This document shows, in pieces, positions 3,525 to 55,845 of a stretch of 64,000 nucleotides of DNA. The DNA lies in NCBI RefSeq assembly GCF_024298765.1, contig NZ_CP101210.1. The stretch is one strand, 5' to 3'. Below the pieces are notes generated by a model. The model ran no database searches and was not told where the DNA came from. It worked only from the letters and a program-made list of their open reading frames with translations. Position 1 is the first letter of the stretch; each line of letters begins with the position of its first letter. The position numbers were made by a program, and so were the translations under genes. The DNA comes from Escherichia coli (GTDB lineage Bacteria; Pseudomonadota; Gammaproteobacteria; Enterobacterales; Enterobacteriaceae).

Positions 3525-3620
3525 GCCCGATGCGCAAGCTTATCGGGCCTACAAGGGAAGCGTAACTTTGAATTCGCACTCACTGTAGGTTGGATAAGGC
3601 GTTTACGCCGCATCCAACAT
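3525..3620. repeat. REP/BIME-type palindromic repeat pair in the yggR-ruvX spacer
   Basis: gcccgatgcgcaagcttatcgggcctaca and gtaggttggataaggcgtttacgccgcatccaaca resemble enterobacterial REP palindromic units. Confidence 0.55.
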
Positions 3621-7330: not shown

Positions 7331-7828
7331 TTATTTCGCAACCAGCTGTTCGCCGCAGTGAACACAGCGATAGACGGCTTCGCCACGAACTACGCGATTA
7401 TGGCGGCGTACGGTAAGCTGATGTTCCTGGCACTTACAGCGGTAGGGGAAGGTGTTGCGGCGCACGGATTGCAGTTCAAACTGATGCGTACGACGGGCGG
7501 GAACGCCCAGCACGCTTTCCATCATCCACTTCCACTCTTTGCCATGTGGTGCTACGCGGCCGAAATGTTTCCATACCAGCAAATGTGCCAGTTCGTGCGG
7601 CACCACTTCTTCAATAAAGGCTTCACTGTTTTCCAACAGCAAAACGGGATTGAGGCGAATTTCATAGCTTTCCAGCCAGGCTGTTCCGGCAGAGGTTCCG
7701 CGCTGGGTGTAAGAGAGTTTTGGCTCCGGGTAGTTACGCCCTAGCTTCAGGTTCGCCTGGGCGAGTTTTTCCCGCAGGCGACGCATAACGGCCTGTTGGA
7801 GGGCGATAGGGAGACGGGATGTTTTCAT
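7331..7828 (-). CDS. sprT: SprT-like zinc metalloprotease-fold protein (165 aa)
   Basis: ORF 7331..7882 trimmed to [14 protein letters not shown]; HELAH motif and C-terminal Cys pairs. Confidence 0.85.
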
Positions 7829-7904
7829 AGCGGCAGAGGATAGAGCGAAGAAAAGATGACTGCAAGAGGTGGCTTCCTCCACGACGGGAGGAAGCCTGAG
7901 GAGA

Positions 7905-9299
7905 TTAATCGTGAGCGCCGATTTCGCGCAGTTTACGACCTTTCATCAGATTACGTTCAATATGTTCCAGCGAAACATGTTTGGTTTCCGGCACCAGCCA
8001 CAATGTCAGCAGGATAAACAGTACGTTCAGAGCCGCATACACCCAGAAGGTGTTGGCGTTACCCAGCGTGTTGAGCATGGTCAGGAACGTTGCGCCAACG
8101 ATCATGTTGGCAATCCAGTTGGTGGCGGTGGAGCAGGTGATGCCAAAATCGCGGCCTTTCAGCGGCTGAATTTCGGAGCACAGTACCCAAATCAGCGGAC
8201 CGGCACTCATGGCAAAGCCAACAATAAACATCAGCAGCATGGCGATGGCGAAATACTGCGCCGACGGAGAGTGGATACCGATATGCATCATTGTACCGAG
8301 TACGCCCATGCCAGCAGCCATCACCAGGAAGCCCAGCGTTAGCGTTGGTTTACGTCCCCAGCGGTCAACAAGGCCGATTGCGATAAAGGTGGCAAGTACG
8401 TTGGTCAGGCCGACAATCACTGTCCCCCACATTTGCTCGGTAGTGTTGGTATAACCCGCCAGTTCGAAGATTTTCGGCGCGTAATACATGATGACGTTCA
8501 TCCCGGTGAATTGCTGCATTACCTGCAACAGTACGCCAAGGAACACCGCGCGGCGGAAGTTGCTGTTCTCTTTAAACAGCGCCCAGCCACTCTGTTTAAC
8601 CTGCAAACTTTCACGGATTTCATCCAGTTCGTGTTTCGCTTCCGCGCTGGTGTCACGCAGGCGTAGCAGCACGCGTTCGGCATCAACAAAACGGCGTTTG
8701 GCGGCAAACCAACGTGGGCTGTCTGGCAGGAAGAAGACACCAATCAGCAGCAAAATTGCCGGGATGATAATCACACCCAGCATCCAGCGCCATGCACCGG
8801 TGTAGCTGAAGGCGGTATCAGAAAGATAAGCGCCGAGGATCCCGATAGTGATCATCAACTGATACATCGAGATCATACTGCCGCGAATTTTTTCCGGCGC
8901 AATTTCAGAGAGGTACAGCGGTGCGGTATAAGAGGCCACACCCACCGCCAGCCCCAGCAGAACGCGCGAAAGAATCAGTACTTCAACGTTTGGCGCAGCC
9001 GCAGAGAACAGTGAACCGGCAACAAACAGGATTGCGCCGATCATCAGGCTCTTTTTGCGCCCGAGTTTAAAGGAGAGCCAGCCGCTGCCCACCGCACCGA
9101 CTGCCGCACCGAACATCATGGAGCTTACGACCCATTCTTGCGTGTGCGAAGTAATCTGGAATTCATCTGCAATAAACGGCAGTGCGCCAGCAATTACACC
9201 GATATCCAGGCCAAAGAGTAATCCCGCCAGAGCAGCAAGGAAGCAGACGAAAAACGTCATTGCCTTGTTTGACCGCCCCTGTTTTTTAGCGTCAGGCAT
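7905..9299 (-). CDS. galP: Galactose:H+ symporter GalP (MFS, 464 aa)
   Basis: ORF 7905..9311 trimmed to [24 protein letters not shown]; 12-TM sugar porter. Confidence 0.9.
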
Positions 9300-13661: not shown

Positions 13662-13678
13662 TTAAGATTATTCCGCTG

Positions 13679-13720
13679 GCGGGTCGATTTATTTACGTAA
13701 ATCGGCCCGCTTTCTTTTTA
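13679..13720 (+). terminator. Rho-independent terminator after speA
   Basis: 13-bp stem gcgggtcgattta / taaatcggcccgc, loop tttacg, then tttcttttta. Confidence 0.6.
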
Positions 13721-13806
13721 TATATTCTTAAAAATAATTTAGCTGCTTTTCTTATTAAATAATCTCCCTACAATCGCTGCATTAATTAAATGCAGAGGGA
13801 ACGGTT

Positions 13807-14538
13807 ATGAAAAAAGGGAAAGTACGTAGCGCGTTGATAGCATTAGCCGTGCTGCTGGCCGGTTGTTCCAGTAATGCGCAGTATAATAGCAGTGCATCAG
13901 GCAATGTCGGCACCGCCTGGGGTGGGGATGTGCACTCAACGGTTCAGGGCGTATCTGCTGAGCGAGCTTGGCGCGATCCGGCAGAGATGATCGTTATTAG
14001 TTATTCGACGACTGTTCCTTCGGGCTACGACCGCGTTTATAGCATTCGTATTAACGAACTTGAATATGCTATTCGCGATGGTAATTTTAATTCTCTACCT
14101 ATTACGCGGGTTTATGATTCGTCAAATAATGAACCACGCTATATTGTCCATGCCAGAGTAGGAATGAATTATCAATTATATGTCCGCAATTACAGTCGTA
14201 ACACCAACTACGAGATCGTTGCTACGGTTGATGGCCTGGATGTGCTGAACGGCAAGCAAGGTTCGCTGAATAACAACGGCTATATTGTGAATGCCGGAGA
14301 TTCGTTAGCGATTAAAGGATTCCGCAAAGATAAACATACCGAAGCGGCTTTTCAGTTCGCCAACGTTGCTGATTCCTACGCAGCCAATTCGGCGCAAGGC
14401 GATGTGCGTAATACCGGTGTAATCGGCTTTGCCGCCTTTGAATTACAAGGCCCGGCGCAAAACGCGCTGCCGCCGTGCTCTGGACAAGCCTTTCCGGCAG
14501 ATAACAATGGCTATGCGCCGCCACCGTGTCGGAAATAG
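13807..14538 (+). CDS. Putative outer-membrane lipoprotein of unknown function (243 aa); candidate accessory gene
   Basis: ORF begins MKKGKVRSALIALAVLLAGCSS: a signal peptide with lipobox LLAG|C and Ser at +2. Mature part is Asn/Ser/Tyr/Gly-rich with two C-terminal Cys. Central portion looks AT-rich. Its own SD (gagggaa) and flanking terminators. Confidence 0.7.
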   Translation: MKKGKVRSALIALAVLLAGCSSNAQYNSSASGNVGTAWGGDVHSTVQGVSAERAWRDPAEMIVISYSTTVPSGYDRVYSIRINELEYAIRDGNFNSLPITRVYDSSNNEPRYIVHARVGMNYQLYVRNYSRNTNYEIVATVDGLDVLNGKQGSLNNNGYIVNAGDSLAIKGFRKDKHTEAAFQFANVADSYAANSAQGDVRNTGVIGFAAFELQGPAQNALPPCSGQAFPADNNGYAPPPCRK

Positions 14539-14603
14539 CAACCTCGCTTGATGCCTCGCCCATTTAAGGCGATAATTAGCACAAAATTGTGTTTCGCAAA
14601 TCC

Positions 14604-15631: not shown

Positions 15632-15668
<37 letters not shown>

Positions 15669-18712: not shown

Positions 18713-18734
18713 TCGGTAAGATGCTTTGTGAGAA

Positions 18735-18759
18735 GGGCCGCGAAAGCGGCCCTTTTTTT
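18735..18759 (+). terminator. Rho-independent terminator of tktA
   Basis: gggccgcgaaagcggccc followed by ttttttt; the T-run overlaps the stop codon of the convergent SPFH gene. Confidence 0.65.
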
Positions 18760-19666
18760 ACTTAGTAGAGATAAACGGAACTGTACTGCCGGGGATCATG
18801 GTATCGGGTAGCTTACCGTCCCAACGCTCAGCAGTGGTGAGGGCAACAAGTCCGGGATTATCCCGCAGAGCTTCACCGCGCAGGCGGATCGCTTCTGCTT
18901 CAGCCGCACTTTTTAAACGAATAGTTTCAGCCTCTGCCGCGCCTCTTACGCGAATAGTCTCAGCTTCTGCTTTGGCTGCCGCCAGTTTACTGTCTGCTTC
19001 AGCCTGGGCCTGAGTTACTGCTATTTGCGCCTGGATTTTCTCTGTTTCCAGATTTTGCTTACGTGTGGCAATGGCGACTTCTGCTTTCATTCGATCTTCA
19101 ATCGATTTTTCATAAGCGTCAGAAAAATCAATATTTTCAATCTGGACACCATCAATCACCACCGGGCCAACAACGGCTTTACGCATTGCATTTTGCAGAT
19201 CCTGAACCAGTTTTGTACGATCCTGTACCGCGCTGATGGCGGTATATTGGCCGAAAACGTTCTCCAGTTGAGTTGGCAGCTGGCGGACGATCAGACGCTC
19301 TTTTAAAGATTCAATGGTGTTGTAGGTTGTATAAACTGCGCCAGCTTCTGAAGGTTTAATGTGGAAGCTGACTGATACTGTCATTTGTGCCGGTTGCTGG
19401 TCGCGGCTGTAGGCCTGTAATCCCTGATAAACCACAGCCTGATTACGCGTGGAAATTTTCTCCACGCTTTCCATAAAAGGGATCTTAAAACCCAGACCCG
19501 GCTCGGCAACTTTTACGATTTTTCCGTAGCGCAGCAAAATGCCGCGTTCACCTTCATTAACGGTGTAATACGAGAGAAATGGCAGCACAACCACGGCAAG
19601 CACGCCAATGACGATAGCAATAGATTTTTGTGGGCGAAATGAGGTTATTGAAACAGGTGCTTTCAT
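18758..19666 (-). CDS. SPFH/band-7 (prohibitin/HflC-like) membrane protein with C-terminal repeat-containing coiled coil (302 aa); candidate accessory gene
   Basis: ORF 18758..19666 with SD aaggaag 7 nt upstream; N-terminal TM helix (IAIVIGVLAVVVLPF) followed by an SPFH-like region; C-terminal AEAETIRVRGA/AEAETIRLKSA/AEAEAIRLRGE repeats. Confidence 0.8.
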   Translation of the reverse strand: MKAPVSITSFRPQKSIAIVIGVLAVVVLPFLSYYTVNEGERGILLRYGKIVKVAEPGLGFKIPFMESVEKISTRNQAVVYQGLQAYSRDQQPAQMTVSVSFHIKPSEAGAVYTTYNTIESLKERLIVRQLPTQLENVFGQYTAISAVQDRTKLVQDLQNAMRKAVVGPVVIDGVQIENIDFSDAYEKSIEDRMKAEVAIATRKQNLETEKIQAQIAVTQAQAEADSKLAAAKAEAETIRVRGAAEAETIRLKSAAEAEAIRLRGEALRDNPGLVALTTAERWDGKLPDTMIPGSTVPFISTK

Positions 19667-20043
19667 GACAATCTTCCTTGAGTAAAGTGTGGGAATATGT
19701 CACATGAGGTGAGGAGAAAACAGCCTACAGGTGAGAATTCAGAATCTATAAAGGGGTATAGCGAAAAAACATTGCATTAAAAAAGTATGTTTTCGGACAT
19801 TCAATAAATAAATGGCGATATGTATCACAAATACAACAACAATCAAAATGTTGATTTTGTGATAAACATAACAAATACAAAGTTGACTTTAAAAATATCA
19901 ATTTCATTTTGTTGTTATTTAAAGTTTTATTATTTTTGTTCATGGGGTTTTTCTTCTCGCGTACCCAATTGCTTTCATTAAACCGCACGAGTATTTTATT
20001 TTTACCGCCGGACGGTACCCTAAAAATAAAATAAGGATAATTT

Positions 20044-50119: not shown

Positions 50120-52993
50120 ATGACACAGACGTTAAGCCAGCTTGAAAACAGCGGCGCTTTTATTGAACGCCATATCGGACCGGACGCCGCGCAACAGCAA
50201 GAAATGCTGAATGCCGTTGGCGCACAATCGTTAAACGCGCTGACCGGCCAGATTGTGCCGAAAGATATTCAGCTTGCGACCCCGCCGCAGGTTGGCGCAC
50301 CGGCGACCGAATACGCCGCGCTGGCGGAACTCAAGGCTATTGCCAGTCGCAATAAACGCTTCACGTCTTACATCGGCATGGGTTACACCGCCGTGCAGCT
50401 ACCGCCGGTTATTCTGCGTAACATGCTGGAAAATCCGGGCTGGTATACCGCGTATACTCCGTATCAACCTGAAGTCTCCCAGGGCCGCCTTGAAGCACTG
50501 CTCAACTTCCAGCAGGTAACGCTGGATTTGACCGGGCTGGATATGGCCTCTGCCTCTCTTCTGGACGAGGCCACTGCTGCCGCCGAAGCAATGGCGATGG
50601 CGAAACGCGTCAGCAAACTGAAAAATGCCAACCGCTTCTTCGTTGCTTCTGACGTTCATCCGCAAACGCTCGATGTGGTCCGTACTCGTGCTGAAACCTT
50701 TGGTTTTGAAGTGATTGTCGATGACGCGCAAAAAGTGCTCGACCATCAGGACGTCTTCGGCGTGCTGTTACAGCAGGTTGGCACAACCGGTGAAATCCAC
50801 GACTACACTGCGCTCATCAGCGAACTGAAATCACGCAAAATTGTGGTCAGTGTCGCCGCCGATATTATGGCGCTGGTGCTGTTAACTGCGCCGGGTAAAC
50901 AGGGCGCGGATATTGTCTTTGGTTCGGCGCAACGCTTCGGTGTGCCGATGGGCTACGGTGGCCCACACGCAGCATTCTTTGCGGCGAAAGATGAATACAA
51001 ACGCTCAATGCCGGGCCGTATTATCGGTGTATCGAAAGATGCAGCTGGCAATACCGCTCTGCGCATGGCGATGCAGACTCGCGAGCAACATATTCGCCGT
51101 GAGAAAGCGAACTCCAACATTTGTACTTCCCAGGTACTGCTGGCAAACATCGCCAGCCTGTATGCCGTTTATCACGGCCCGGTTGGCCTGAAACGTATCG
51201 CTAACCGCATCCACCGTCTGACCGATATCCTGGCGGCGGGCCTGCAACAAAAAGGTCTGAAACTGCGTCATGCGCACTATTTCGACACTTTGTGTGTGGA
51301 AGTGGCAGACAAGGCGGGCGTACTGGCGCGTGCCGAAGCGGCTGAAATCAACCTGCGTAGCGATATCCTGAACGCGGTTGGGATCACCCTTGATGAAACC
51401 ACCACGCGTGAAAACGTGATGCAGCTTTTCAGCGTACTGCTGGGGGATAACCACGGCCTGGACATCGACACGCTGGACAAAGACGTGGCTCACGACAGCC
51501 GCTCTATTCAGCCTGCGATGCTGCGCGACGACGAAATCCTCACCCATCCGGTGTTTAATCGCTACCACAGCGAAACCGAAATGATGCGCTATATGCACTC
51601 GCTGGAGCGTAAAGATCTGGCGCTGAATCAGGCGATGATCCCGCTGGGTTCCTGCACCATGAAACTGAACGCCGCCGCCGAGATGCTCCCAATCACCTGG
51701 CCGGAATTTGCCGAACTGCACCCGTTCTGCCCGCCGGAGCAGGCCGAAGGTTATCAGCAGATGATTGCGCAGCTGGCTGACTGGCTGGTGAAACTGACCG
51801 GTTACGACGCCGTTTGTATGCAGCCGAACTCTGGCGCACAGGGCGAATACGCGGGCCTGCTGGCGATTCGTCATTATCATGAAAGCCGCAACGAAGGGCA
51901 TCGTGATATCTGCCTGATCCCGGCTTCTGCGCACGGAACTAACCCCGCTTCTGCACATATGGCAGGAATGCAGGTGGTGGTTGTGGCGTGTGATAAAAAC
52001 GGCAACATCGATCTGACTGATCTGCGCGCGAAAGCGGAACAGGCGGGCGATAACCTCTCCTGTATCATGGTGACCTATCCTTCCACCCACGGCGTGTATG
52101 AAGAAACGATCCGTGAAGTGTGTGAAGTCGTGCATCAGTTCGGCGGTCAGGTTTACCTTGATGGCGCGAACATGAACGCCCAGGTCGGCATCACCTCACC
52201 GGGCTTTATTGGCGCGGACGTCTCGCACCTTAACCTGCATAAAACTTTCTGCATTCCGCACGGTGGCGGCGGCCCTGGTATGGGACCGATCGGCGTGAAA
52301 GCGCATCTGGCACCGTTTGTGCCAGGTCATAGCGTGGTACAAATTGAAGGCATGTTAACCCGTCAGGGCGCGGTTTCTGCGGCACCGTTCGGTAGCGCAT
52401 CCATTCTGCCAATCAGCTGGATGTACATCCGCATGATGGGCGCAGAAGGGCTGAAAAAAGCAAGCCAGGTGGCAATTCTTAACGCCAACTATATTGCCAG
52501 CCGCCTGCAGGATGCCTTCCCGGTGCTGTATACCGGTCGCGACGGTCGCGTGGCGCACGAATGTATTCTCGATATTCGCCCGCTGAAAGAAGAAACCGGC
52601 ATCAGCGAACTGGATATTGCCAAGCGTCTGATCGACTACGGTTTCCACGCGCCGACCATGTCGTTCCCGGTGGCGGGTACGCTGATGGTTGAACCGACTG
52701 AATCTGAAAGCAAAGTGGAACTGGATCGCTTTATCGACGCGATGCTGGCTATCCGCGCAGAAATTGACCAGGTGAAAGCCGGTGTCTGGCCGCTGGAAGA
52801 TAACCCGCTGGTGAACGCGCCGCACATTCAGAGCGAACTGGTCGCCGAGTGGGCGCATCCGTACAGCCGTGAAGTTGCGGTATTCCCGGCAGGCGTGGCA
52901 GACAAATACTGGCCGACAGTGAAACGTCTGGATGATGTTTACGGCGACCGTAACCTGTTCTGCTCCTGCGTACCGATTAGCGAATACCAGTAA
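50120..52993 (+). CDS. gcvP: Glycine dehydrogenase (decarboxylating) GcvP (957 aa)
   Basis: ORF 50036..52993 trimmed to [22 protein letters not shown]. Confidence 0.95.
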
Positions 52994-53015
52994 TTCACTG
53001 ATTCGACTATCTTCT

Positions 53016-53038
53016 AAAGGCGCTTCGGCGCCTTTTTA
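53016..53038 (+). terminator. Rho-independent terminator after gcvP
   Basis: aaaggcgcttcggcgccttttta. Confidence 0.6.
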
Positions 53039-53117
53039 GCTTGTTAATAAAGTGCGCTTTGTGTGTCGGATGAAGCGTAAATATAAACTCCTGGAGTTCA
53101 ATATATGACAGGAGCGC

Positions 53118-53147
53118 CAGGCCTGATGAGCGGGGCGCATCAGGCAC
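53118..53147. repeat. REP-like palindrome in the gcvP-bglA spacer
   Basis: gcctgatgagcggggcgcatcaggc. Confidence 0.45.
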
Positions 53148-53156
53148 ATCGGGTAA

Positions 53157-54617
<1,461 letters not shown>

Positions 54618-55769: not shown

Positions 55770-55845
55770 TGGGTGTGCCTTTGTAGGCCTGAAAAGACAC
55801 ACCCTTGTCGCATCAGGCGATAAATGCATGATGCGACACAGAGAT

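What the first reader, a model, noticed from the sequence alone, without database searches (positions are those of the whole stretch)
52994..53156. No ygfF-like gene between gcvP and bglA
In my recollection of K-12 a short-chain dehydrogenase gene (ygfF, about 250 aa) sits between bglA and gcvP. Here the two stops are only 163 bp apart, occupied by a terminator and a REP-like palindrome. Together with the two insertions this points to a non-K-12 lineage; a REP at the junction could mark the deletion or insertion breakpoint.
Basis: partly seen in the sequence, partly recalled or inferred. Interest (0 to 1): 0.3.

Follow-up and report, generated by a model that had tools for sequence, protein, structure and literature searches.

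The report
Common ygfF-less gcvP–bglA allele
This E. coli strain lacks the small dehydrogenase gene ygfF that K-12 carries between gcvP and bglA; this is an ordinary, very common strain-to-strain difference (about 43% of complete E. coli genomes) left by an old gene loss next to a repetitive palindrome.

Summary
gcvP (+) stops at 52993 and bglA (-) at 53157, leaving 163 bp with no gene. The spacer holds the gcvTHP terminator hairpin (53016-53039), a decayed BIME-1 repeat (53066-53120) and one intact REP palindrome (53121-53145).

Among 5,426 complete E. coli genomes:
- 3,053 carry ygfF.
- 2,349 carry this gene-less spacer: 423 are the window's own variant and about 1,950 a variant ~86% identical (B2 NRG 857C, O157:H7).
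- 17 carry a third allele, in which an outer-membrane-protein gene replaces ygfF.

bglA-ygfF-gcvP adjacency occurs in about 15 Enterobacteriaceae species, two Erwiniaceae and a cryptic Escherichia lineage. Absence is therefore a loss, not a K-12 insertion.

The last 20 nt of the spacer (right REP arm plus 11 nt) match the end of the ygfF-bglA spacer of ygfF-bearing Escherichia. The REP is thus the ancestral bglA-side hairpin, and the deletion junction lies at or inside it. I infer REP-REP recombination with a BIME upstream of ygfF; no ancestral allele was found.

Ordinary accessory-gene polymorphism: low interest.

The parts
50120..52993 (+). gcvP (glycine decarboxylase), last gene of gcvTHP; stop codon at 52991-52993
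   Evidence: ORF list; TIGR00461, 1840 bits; annotated as gcvP in the 100%-identical record NZ_CP033850
52994..53156 (.). 163-bp gene-less gcvP-bglA spacer, the ygfF-less allele
   Evidence: Sequence. No YgfF-like coding. No Rfam family at E<=1. The same spacer type covers >=80% of the query in 2,349 of 5,426 genomes.
53016..53039 (+). Intrinsic terminator of gcvTHP: hairpin AAAGGCGC/TTCG/GCGCCTTT followed by TTAG (the T-run overlaps the 3' arm). Homology with the K-12 allele ends here (left breakpoint).
   Evidence: The 46-nt stretch 53005-53050 containing it folds at -13.7 kcal/mol. It is identical in the K-12 allele and conserved in Citrobacter, Kluyvera and Kosakonia directly upstream of ygfF. 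The pattern scan missed it.
53040..53065 (.). 26-nt flank CTTGTTAATAAAGTGCGCTTTGTGTG, shared with the OMP-bearing allele but not with the K-12 ygfF allele
   Evidence: blastn and alignments
53066..53120 (+). Decayed left part of a BIME-1. It comprises the first half of a Y-type REP (53066-53080, TCGGATGAAGCGTAA), a gap of ~15-20 columns against the intact elements, and an L-motif remnant AGTTCAATATATGACAG (53095-53111).
   Evidence: Aligns with the canonical K-12 BIME-1 between mscS and fbaA and with the BIME-1 of the OMP and N96 alleles. The L motif matches 14 of 17 positions.
53121..53145 (-). REP palindrome (Z-type, GCCTGATG...CATCAGGC) at the 3' end of bglA. The inferred deletion junction lies in or at its right arm (about 53136-53146).
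   Evidence: Unique pattern match in the window. The 56-nt minus-strand stretch 53105-53160 containing it folds at -17.8 kcal/mol. Dispersed family, median 32 places per genome. Right arm plus flank is homologous to the ygfF-bglA spacer of L091.
53146..53156 (.). 11 nt ACATCGGGTAA between the REP and the bglA stop, retained from the ancestral ygfF-bglA spacer
   Evidence: Over the 20 nt ending at the bglA stop (right REP arm plus these 11 nt), 17 of 20 match the cryptic-Escherichia ygfF allele L091; 1 of 300 shuffles scored as high.
53157..54590 (-). bglA (6-phospho-beta-glucosidase A), convergent with gcvP; stop codon at 53157-53159
   Evidence: NF011589, 1150 bits; annotation of the identical record

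Best explanation
The 163-bp interval is the common ygfF-less allele of the E. coli gcvP-bglA junction. Ancestrally, across Enterobacteriaceae and in Escherichia itself, the gcvTHP terminator was followed directly by ygfF and then by a REP-type hairpin abutting the convergent bglA stop. YgfF is a short-chain dehydrogenase (SDR) with glucose 1-dehydrogenase activity in vitro. In the lineage of this allele a deletion removed the ygfF ribosome-binding site, the whole ORF and its short 3' flank. What remains is the intact gcvTHP terminator, about 80 bp of a decayed BIME-1 (half a Y-REP plus the L motif), and a REP whose right arm and next 11 nt are the original bglA-side sequence. The most likely mechanism (inferred, not shown) is recombination between the Z-REP of a BIME-1 that sat between the terminator and ygfF and the like-oriented REP downstream of ygfF; the two share GCATC(A/C)GGCA. 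The neighbours look unharmed: gcvP keeps its terminator and bglA keeps its 3' hairpin. The only predicted consequence is loss of YgfF.
For: Shown:
- K-12 has ygfF here.
- The alleles are nearly complementary among 5,426 genomes: ygfF 3,053, gene-less spacer 2,349, OMP allele 17, total 5,419.
- bglA-ygfF-gcvP adjacency occurs in Citrobacter, Pseudocitrobacter, Kluyvera, Enterobacter, Pluralibacter, Kosakonia, Siccibacter, Phytobacter, Pseudescherichia, Erwinia psidii and Pantoea stewartii.
- It also occurs in an unclassified Escherichia whose gcvP and bglA are about 95-96% identical to E. coli and whose ygfF is 93.1% identical to K-12's. ygfF diverges faster than its flanks throughout (Citrobacter youngae: 75% against 86%), so this fits vertical descent.
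- No YgfF relative between 90% and 85% identity was listed outside Escherichia/Shigella.
- The left breakpoint is exactly after the terminator.
- The right end GCATCAGGCACATCGGGTAA|TTA matches L091's GCATCCGGCACATCAGCTAA|TCA in the same register.
- Outgroups carry a GCCGGATG...CATCCGGCA hairpin at that place.
- The spacer aligns with a canonical BIME-1 from elsewhere in K-12.
- ygfF alleles of the N96 and L091 type carry BIME-1 copies between gcvP and ygfF.
- The REP is a member of a dispersed family.
Against: - No extant allele with the exact predicted precursor was found (a BIME-1 in Y-L-Z orientation upstream of ygfF). In N96 and L091 the BIME-1 is inverted relative to the window, so an extra inversion or an unsampled ancestor must be assumed.
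- The homologies around the junction are short (10-20 nt), and REPs resemble one another by family membership.
- The spacer is about 14% diverged between the two gene-less variants while the flanking genes differ by 1-4%. The history therefore includes recombination that I did not resolve.
- Phylogroups were not assigned.
- E. fergusonii and Salmonella were not in the sample returned.
Confidence: 0.85

Rival explanations
1. The gene-less spacer was made by deleting the outer-membrane-protein (OMP) cassette from the third allele (gcvP, BIME-1, AT-rich region, 298-aa Phenol_MetA_deg OMP gene, hairpin, bglA) rather than directly from a ygfF allele.
For: The window spacer is collinear with the first ~160 bp of the OMP-allele spacer; the 26-nt post-terminator flank is near-identical and the BIME-1 stretch is homologous but more diverged. 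The window's last 400 bp of bglA are 99.8% identical to those of the OMP-allele strain LD67-1. The OMP gene is decaying in E. coli, with a stop at codon 46 in LD67-1. WB61 appears to carry a further deletion here, though its sequence has Ns at the junction. The OMP allele is old: it occurs in E. albertii and in a ~95%-divergent Escherichia, with the OMP gene 94.8% identical, similar to its flanks.
Against: The 10-11 nt between the REP and the bglA stop in both gene-less variants match the ygfF-bglA spacer of L091, not the OMP-bglA spacer, which is a different hairpin (GTTACCCGCC...GGCGGGTAAC). By my estimate the chance of 8-9 matches in 10 is about 4e-4. The REP is intact in the window but internally deleted in both OMP alleles, so the window cannot descend from those forms. 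More likely both derive from a common BIME-bearing ygfF ancestor.
Confidence: 0.12
2. The window shows the ancestral state, and ygfF was inserted into the K-12 (A/B1) lineage by horizontal transfer.
For: ygfF-bearing reference strains seen here are K-12, O111:H8 and O121. B2 (NRG 857C, F11), O157:H7 and O145:H28 lack it. E. albertii lacks ygfF at this site.
Against: The same bglA-ygfF-gcvP order occurs in more than 20 loci from other genera and in a cryptic Escherichia. In outgroups the gcvP terminator sits directly upstream of the ygfF start, as in the N96 allele. ygfF divergence tracks flank divergence. No near-identical donor outside Escherichia was listed.
Confidence: 0.03
3. The missing gene is an assembly or sampling artefact of this window.
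For: None specific. One other genome (HH97) has an error-ridden ygfF region that looks like a deletion to megablast.
Against: The window is 100% identical to a finished chromosome over the 1,201 bp tested (52500-53700). The same spacer occurs in 423 genomes at >=95% identity and in about 1,950 more at ~86%.
Confidence: 0.01

Closest known systems
E. coli K-12 MG1655 bglA (b2901) - ygfF (b2902) - gcvP (b2903) interval
   Same: The flanking genes, their convergent orientation and the gcvTHP terminator are the same. The flanks are 97.4-97.6% identical.
   Different: K-12 has 1,020 bp (3,045,102-3,046,121) where the window has 117 bp (53040-53156). The K-12 segment is a 266-bp gcvP-ygfF spacer holding the G-rich hairpin/G-quadruplex repeats listed in PMC5100583 (the first 46 bp, through the terminator, are shared with the window), then ygfF, then a 56-bp spacer with a CCGGATGCAAC...GTTGCATCCGG hairpin.
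BIME-1 (Y-REP, L motif with IHF site, Z-REP), e.g. the K-12 element between mscS and fbaA at 3,070,001-3,070,110
   Same: The order and orientation match (Y half, L motif TTCAATATAT, Z-REP). The location is extragenic, between convergent genes.
   Different: The window copy is decayed. The second half of the Y-REP and the start of L are missing, the L motif has 3 of 17 mismatches including the TTG of the IHF-like site, and only the Z-REP is an intact palindrome.
REP-associated rearrangement and REP-targeted insertion (established knowledge: REPs as substrates for recombination; IS621 and related IS110-family elements insert into REPs)
   Same: The junction lies at a REP. The same intergenic BIME in another strain (2017-02-2CC) carries an IS621 insertion. 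The repeat region appears duplicated (N96, L091), inverted between alleles, and possibly deleted further in WB61.
   Different: The recombination event itself is inferred from comparison of alleles. No precursor allele or experimental evidence is available.
Third allele: Phenol_MetA_deg (PF13557) outer-membrane 'transporter' gene between gcvP and bglA in E. albertii, a divergent Escherichia (L004) and 17 E. coli
   Same: It shares the terminator, the 26-nt flank and the BIME-1 with the window allele.
   Different: It carries a ~1.24-kb cassette (AT-rich upstream region, 897-bp OMP gene, non-REP hairpin) where the window has 11 nt.

Membership tests
REP (repetitive extragenic palindrome) | Imperfect palindrome of ~25-35 nt with arms GCC(G/T)GATG ... 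CATC(C/A)GGC | tested here: met
   53121-53145 is GCCTGATGAGCGGGGCGCATCAGGC with 8-bp perfect arms. It is the only match in the window; 0.01 expected.
REP (repetitive extragenic palindrome) | Dispersed in many copies per genome, in extragenic positions | tested here: met
   A 45-nt query hits 14-47 (median 32, capped at 40 pieces) places per genome in 5,425 genomes. It lies between two stop codons.
BIME-1 | Two REPs (Y and Z) in inverted orientation flanking an L motif | tested here: inconclusive
   The Z-REP is intact, the Y-REP is reduced to its first ~15 nt, and the L motif matches 14 of 17 positions. The spacer aligns along a canonical K-12 BIME-1 with a gap of ~15 columns.
BIME-1 | IHF binding to the L motif | not testable with these tools
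   The sequence has TATATGAC where the canonical copy has TATATTGC. Binding would need a gel-shift or ChIP experiment.
Intrinsic (Rho-independent) terminator | G+C-rich hairpin followed by a T-run at the 3' end of an operon | tested here: met
   8-bp stem (5 G-C pairs), TTCG loop, T5. The 46-nt stretch 53005-53050 containing it folds at -13.7 kcal/mol, z = -2.7. It is conserved in several genera. The consensus scan reported 0 sites, probably because its A-U pairs absorb the T-run.
ygfF / SDR glucose 1-dehydrogenase subgroup | A ~247-aa adh_short ORF between gcvP and bglA | tested here: not met
   No such ORF exists. tblastn of YgfF against the whole window gives no hit at E<=1e-3.
Derived deletion allele (loss) as opposed to ancestral absence | The gene is present at the orthologous site in outgroups and in sister lineages | tested here: met
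   About 15 Enterobacteriaceae loci have ygfF immediately between bglA and gcvP, as do 2 Erwiniaceae loci. In 5 further Enterobacteriaceae loci the trio is interrupted by a 3-4-kb insertion. A cryptic Escherichia also has the gene at this site.

The most novel reading that the evidence does not exclude
The gcvP-bglA junction may be an old multi-allelic site in the genus Escherichia. Three mutually exclusive states occur: ygfF, a MetA-like outer-membrane-protein gene, or nothing. Under this reading all three were generated and reshuffled by one small repeat module, a BIME-1 bracketed by copies of the palindromic gcvTHP terminator. The gene-less allele would arise by REP-REP recombination, and the alleles would then move between lineages by homologous recombination in the flanking genes. 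That would make it a compact natural example of REP/BIME-driven gene replacement.
Probability: 0.3. Interest if true: 0.3.

Novelty: already known. Interest (0 to 1): 0.12.

Why it matters
It matters little in itself. The result shows that the absence of ygfF is a real, lineage-typical and very common E. coli polymorphism caused by gene loss. It is not an anomaly of this window and not a K-12 insertion. Practically, YgfF (reported as a glucose 1-dehydrogenase in vitro, PMC10645960; accepted as a correct prediction in PMC12506659) is dispensable in nearly half of sequenced E. coli, including B2 and O157:H7 strains. This is relevant when its physiological role is discussed from K-12 data alone. 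The locus is also a tidy teaching example of how REP/BIME repeats and a palindromic terminator mark the edges of gene gain and loss.

Tried and rejected
- The consensus terminator scan found nothing in 52800-53400. I rejected this as a negative because folding shows a textbook hairpin plus T-run.
A looser arm pattern and a population search established REP membership instead.
- Rfam at E<=1 found nothing in 52700-53500, so there is no known sRNA or riboswitch.
- The 53-aa ORF at 53105-53266 starts inside the spacer. Its ATG is absent from the B2/O157 spacer variant and it runs antisense into bglA. I rejected it as a gene.
- I looked for a ygfF remnant in the 117 bp by sensitive local alignment to the K-12 allele. 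Nothing exceeded shuffles beyond the terminator.
- I first read the bglA codon AAT (Asn, third from the end) as a derived marker of the gene-less alleles. The outgroups (Citrobacter, L091) also have it, so it is ancestral.
- Phylogroup assignment of the window failed. UMN026 (NC_011751.1) is not in the collection under that accession, and strain names among the 423 window-type genomes were not diagnostic.
- HH97 looked like an independent ygfF deletion (H70), but its ygfF region is only ~74% identical to K-12's and looks like sequencing or assembly noise.
- I searched for the predicted precursor allele among divergent YgfF proteins (P0074, P0079, P0082, P0085). Two are N96-type or a tandem version of it; the other two, judged by spacer length or bglA identity only, look K-12-like.

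Full report
**Observation.**
- In the window, gcvP (+) ends with TAA at 52991-52993. bglA lies on the minus strand at 53157-54590, with its stop at 53157-53159.
- Both identities are secure: TIGR00461 at 1840 bits and NF011589 at 1150 bits. A 100%-identical finished chromosome, E. coli FDAARGOS_497, annotates them the same way.
- The interval 52994-53156 is 163 bp and contains no YgfF-like coding sequence. tblastn of YgfF against all 64 kb finds nothing.
The 46-nt stretch 53005-53050 containing it folds at -13.7 kcal/mol, z = -2.7.
- The simple consensus scan reported no terminator. I attribute this to its A-U pairs consuming the T-run.
- The 'REP-like palindrome' is GCCTGATGAGCGGGGCGCATCAGGC at 53121-53145. 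It is the only such pattern in the window, against 0.01 expected.
- A 45-nt query around it hits a median of 32 places per genome across 5,425 E. coli genomes. It is therefore a true member of the REP family.
- Rfam finds no RNA family in the region.

- Yes. MG1655 has bglA b2901, ygfF b2902 and gcvP b2903, with 1,066 bp between the stops.
- Aligning the two forms shows identity through the gcvP terminator (window 53039) and again from the bglA stop onward. Between them, 117 bp in the window replace 1,020 bp in K-12.
- The whole window is collinear with K-12 3,034,149-3,097,592 in reverse orientation, at 96.4-98.4% identity. It has two window-only segments. 'Non-K-12 lineage' is correct.

**How common is it?** Among 5,426 complete E. 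coli genomes (counts at >=80% query coverage):

| State | Genomes | Source |
|---|---|---|
| ygfF present | 3,053 | |
| Window-type gene-less spacer | 2,349 | |
| Third allele (OMP gene) | 17 | |
| Total accounted for | 5,419 | |

- The states are thus essentially mutually exclusive.
- The gene-less spacer comes in two forms. The window's own form occurs in 423 genomes at >=95% identity, including O145:H28 and APEC O2-211.
- A form about 86% identical occurs in about 1,950 genomes, including B2 strain NRG 857C and O157:H7.
- ygfF-bearing strains include K-12, O111:H8 and O121.
- I could not assign phylogroups systematically.

**Direction of the event.**
- A scan of one genome per species with BglA returned 80 loci; tblastn mapped YgfF, GcvP and BglA on the best-matching 37 of them.
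- bglA-ygfF-gcvP are immediate neighbours in Citrobacter (4 species), Pseudocitrobacter (2), Kluyvera, Enterobacter, Pluralibacter (2), Pseudescherichia, Kosakonia, Siccibacter and Phytobacter. The same holds in Erwinia psidii and Pantoea stewartii.
- In five more loci the same trio is interrupted by a 3-4-kb insertion.
- In most of these outgroups the gcvP terminator sits directly in front of the ygfF ribosome-binding site, and a GCCGGATG...CATCCGGCA hairpin lies between ygfF and the bglA stop.
- An 'unclassified Escherichia' (L091) has gcvP and bglA about 95-96% identical to E. coli. It also has gcvT-gcvH-gcvP-ygfF-bglA, with ygfF 93.1% identical to K-12's.
- ygfF diverges faster than its flanks throughout (Citrobacter youngae: 75% against 86%). 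This pattern fits vertical descent.
- The protein search listed Escherichia/Shigella YgfF at 90-100% identity and then nothing until 85%. There is no sign of a recent foreign donor.
- ygfF is therefore ancestral and the window shows a loss.
- Independent losses or decay also occur elsewhere: Enterobacter sp. Bisph1 has a ~290-bp spacer and MAG CTSoil_132 has a truncated ygfF.

**What the 117 bp are.**
- The right end of the spacer is GCATCAGGCACATCGGGTAA followed by the bglA stop. It matches the end of L091's ygfF-bglA spacer, GCATCCGGCACATCAGCTAA, in the same register (17 of 20; 1 of 300 shuffles scored as high).
- Both gene-less variants show this match. So the REP's right arm and the next 11 nt are the original bglA-side sequence, and the REP occupies the position of the ancestral hairpin.
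- The left part (53040-53120) has no counterpart in the K-12 allele.
- That left part aligns with a canonical BIME-1 from an unrelated K-12 locus, between mscS and fbaA. It contains the first half of a Y-REP, a gap of ~15 columns, and an L-motif remnant (14 of 17).
- Together with the REP at 53121-53145 in the Z position, the spacer reads as terminator plus decayed BIME-1.

**A third allele.**
- E. albertii carries a 298-aa signal-peptide protein in place of ygfF. So do a ~95%-divergent genome labelled E. coli (L004) and 17 E. coli genomes.
- The protein belongs to Pfam family Phenol_MetA_deg, is annotated 'transporter', and looks like an outer-membrane beta-barrel.
- Its left spacer shares the terminator, the 26-nt flank and the BIME-1 with the window. 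It then continues into an AT-rich region, the gene and a non-REP hairpin.
- In E. coli LD67-1 the gene has a stop at codon 46.
- WB61 appears to have a further deletion, from the last codons of gcvP into the gene; its sequence has Ns at that junction.
- The window's last 400 bp of bglA are 99.8% identical to those of LD67-1.

**Model.**
- The N96-type ygfF allele occurs in 108 genomes with ygfF 90-95% identical to K-12's. It has a BIME-1 plus flanks bracketed by two copies of the palindromic terminator, and L091 has this unit in tandem.
- That BIME-1 with its flank aligns along its whole length with the OMP-allele BIME-1, but in the opposite orientation. The alignment includes GTTTGACATCAGTG against GTTTGTATCAGTG, which is not part of the K-12 mscS BIME flank.
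- The simplest reconstruction is an ancestor with this layout: gcvP, terminator, BIME-1 (Y-L-Z), terminator remnant, ygfF, REP, bglA.
- Recombination between the Z-REP and the like-oriented REP downstream of ygfF (shared GCATC(A/C)GGCA) gives exactly the window's structure.
- Replacement of ygfF and its REP by the OMP cassette gives the third allele.
- This is inference. The precursor was not found among the divergent ygfF alleles I could reach, and the homologies are short.
- The alternative, that the gene-less allele came from the OMP allele by deletion, is disfavoured. The 11-nt flank next to bglA matches the ygfF allele and not the OMP allele. The window's REP is also more intact than those of the OMP alleles.

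**Function.**
- The gcvTHP terminator is intact and conserved.
- The REP hairpin at the bglA 3' end is intact; the 56-nt minus-strand stretch 53105-53160 containing it folds at -17.8 kcal/mol.
- From established knowledge, REPs can protect upstream mRNA from 3' exonucleases. This was not tested here.
- The only predicted consequence is absence of YgfF. That enzyme was reported as a glucose 1-dehydrogenase in vitro (PMC10645960), and the assignment was accepted as correct in a critical re-analysis (PMC12506659).
- The G-rich hairpin/G-quadruplex repeats listed between ygfF and gcvP in K-12 (PMC5100583) are absent from the window.

**Verdict.**
- This is an ordinary, widespread presence/absence polymorphism.
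- None of the 15 papers in the library that mention ygfF appeared, from titles and abstracts, to address its presence or absence across strains. The kind of feature is nonetheless entirely familiar.
- Interest is low.

Noticed in passing
L004:7482-8378 (-); L005 (E. albertii) 2690-2895; L086:1501-2397: A third allele of the gcvP-bglA junction exists. A 298-aa signal-peptide protein of Pfam family Phenol_MetA_deg (annotated 'transporter') replaces ygfF in E. albertii, in a ~95%-divergent 'E. coli' and in 17 complete E. coli genomes. In LD67-1 it has a stop at codon 46.
   Followed up: partly
L088:1268-1500 (N96) and L091:3596-4000: In a divergent ygfF allele (108 genomes, ygfF 90-95% identical to K-12's), the palindromic gcvTHP terminator is duplicated on both sides of a ~170-bp BIME-1-containing unit. 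A cryptic Escherichia has this unit twice in tandem, giving three terminator copies. The unit is inverted relative to the BIME-1 of the window and OMP alleles.
   Followed up: partly
L097:3780-4760 (E. coli 2017-02-2CC): An IS621 (IS110-like) transposase gene is inserted in the gcvP-ygfF spacer of an N96-type allele, the spacer that holds the BIME-1. This fits that element's known preference for REP targets.
   Followed up: no
L087:1960-2169 (E. coli WB61): A further deletion appears to run from the last codons of gcvP into the OMP gene, leaving 120 bp of it. gcvP is annotated as a pseudogene. The sequence contains N characters at the junction, so it may be partly an assembly problem.
   Followed up: no
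window 13662-14596: A window-only segment between speA and speB replaces ~60 bp of K-12. It holds a 243-aa ORF (13807-14538, +) with a lipoprotein-like N-terminus (…LLAGCSS) and no Pfam match.
   Followed up: partly
window 18714-19965: A window-only segment between tktA and cmtB replaces ~235 bp of K-12. It holds a 302-aa Band_7/SPFH-domain protein (18758-19666, -; PF01145, E = 3.5e-30).
   Followed up: partly
L020 (Enterobacter sp. Bisph1) 7432-7722; L017 (MAG CTSoil_132) 7485-7952: Independent loss or decay of ygfF occurs at the same junction in other Enterobacteriaceae: a ~290-bp gene-less spacer in one, and a ygfF truncated to residues 99-247 in the other.
   Followed up: no
L096:466-1301 (E. 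coli HH97): The ygfF region of this 'complete' genome is only ~74% identical to K-12's and full of G/C-run noise. Megablast sees only a 45-bp remnant. It looks like an assembly-quality problem, not biology.
   Followed up: yes
window 53157-53165 and homologues (alignment A4): The third-from-last codon of bglA is AAT (Asn) in the gene-less alleles, the cryptic Escherichia and Citrobacter. It is AAG (Lys) in the K-12, N96, OMP-allele, L004 and E. albertii forms. This is the only difference between the window and LD67-1 in the last 400 bp of bglA, which hints at a recombination boundary right at the junction.
   Followed up: partly
window 3539-3598, 15653-15666, 55783-55796: Other REP-tail matches (CTTATCMGGCCTAC, <=2 mismatches) occur in the window: 5 found against 0.4 expected. 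They include an inverted pair at 3539-3598.
   Followed up: no
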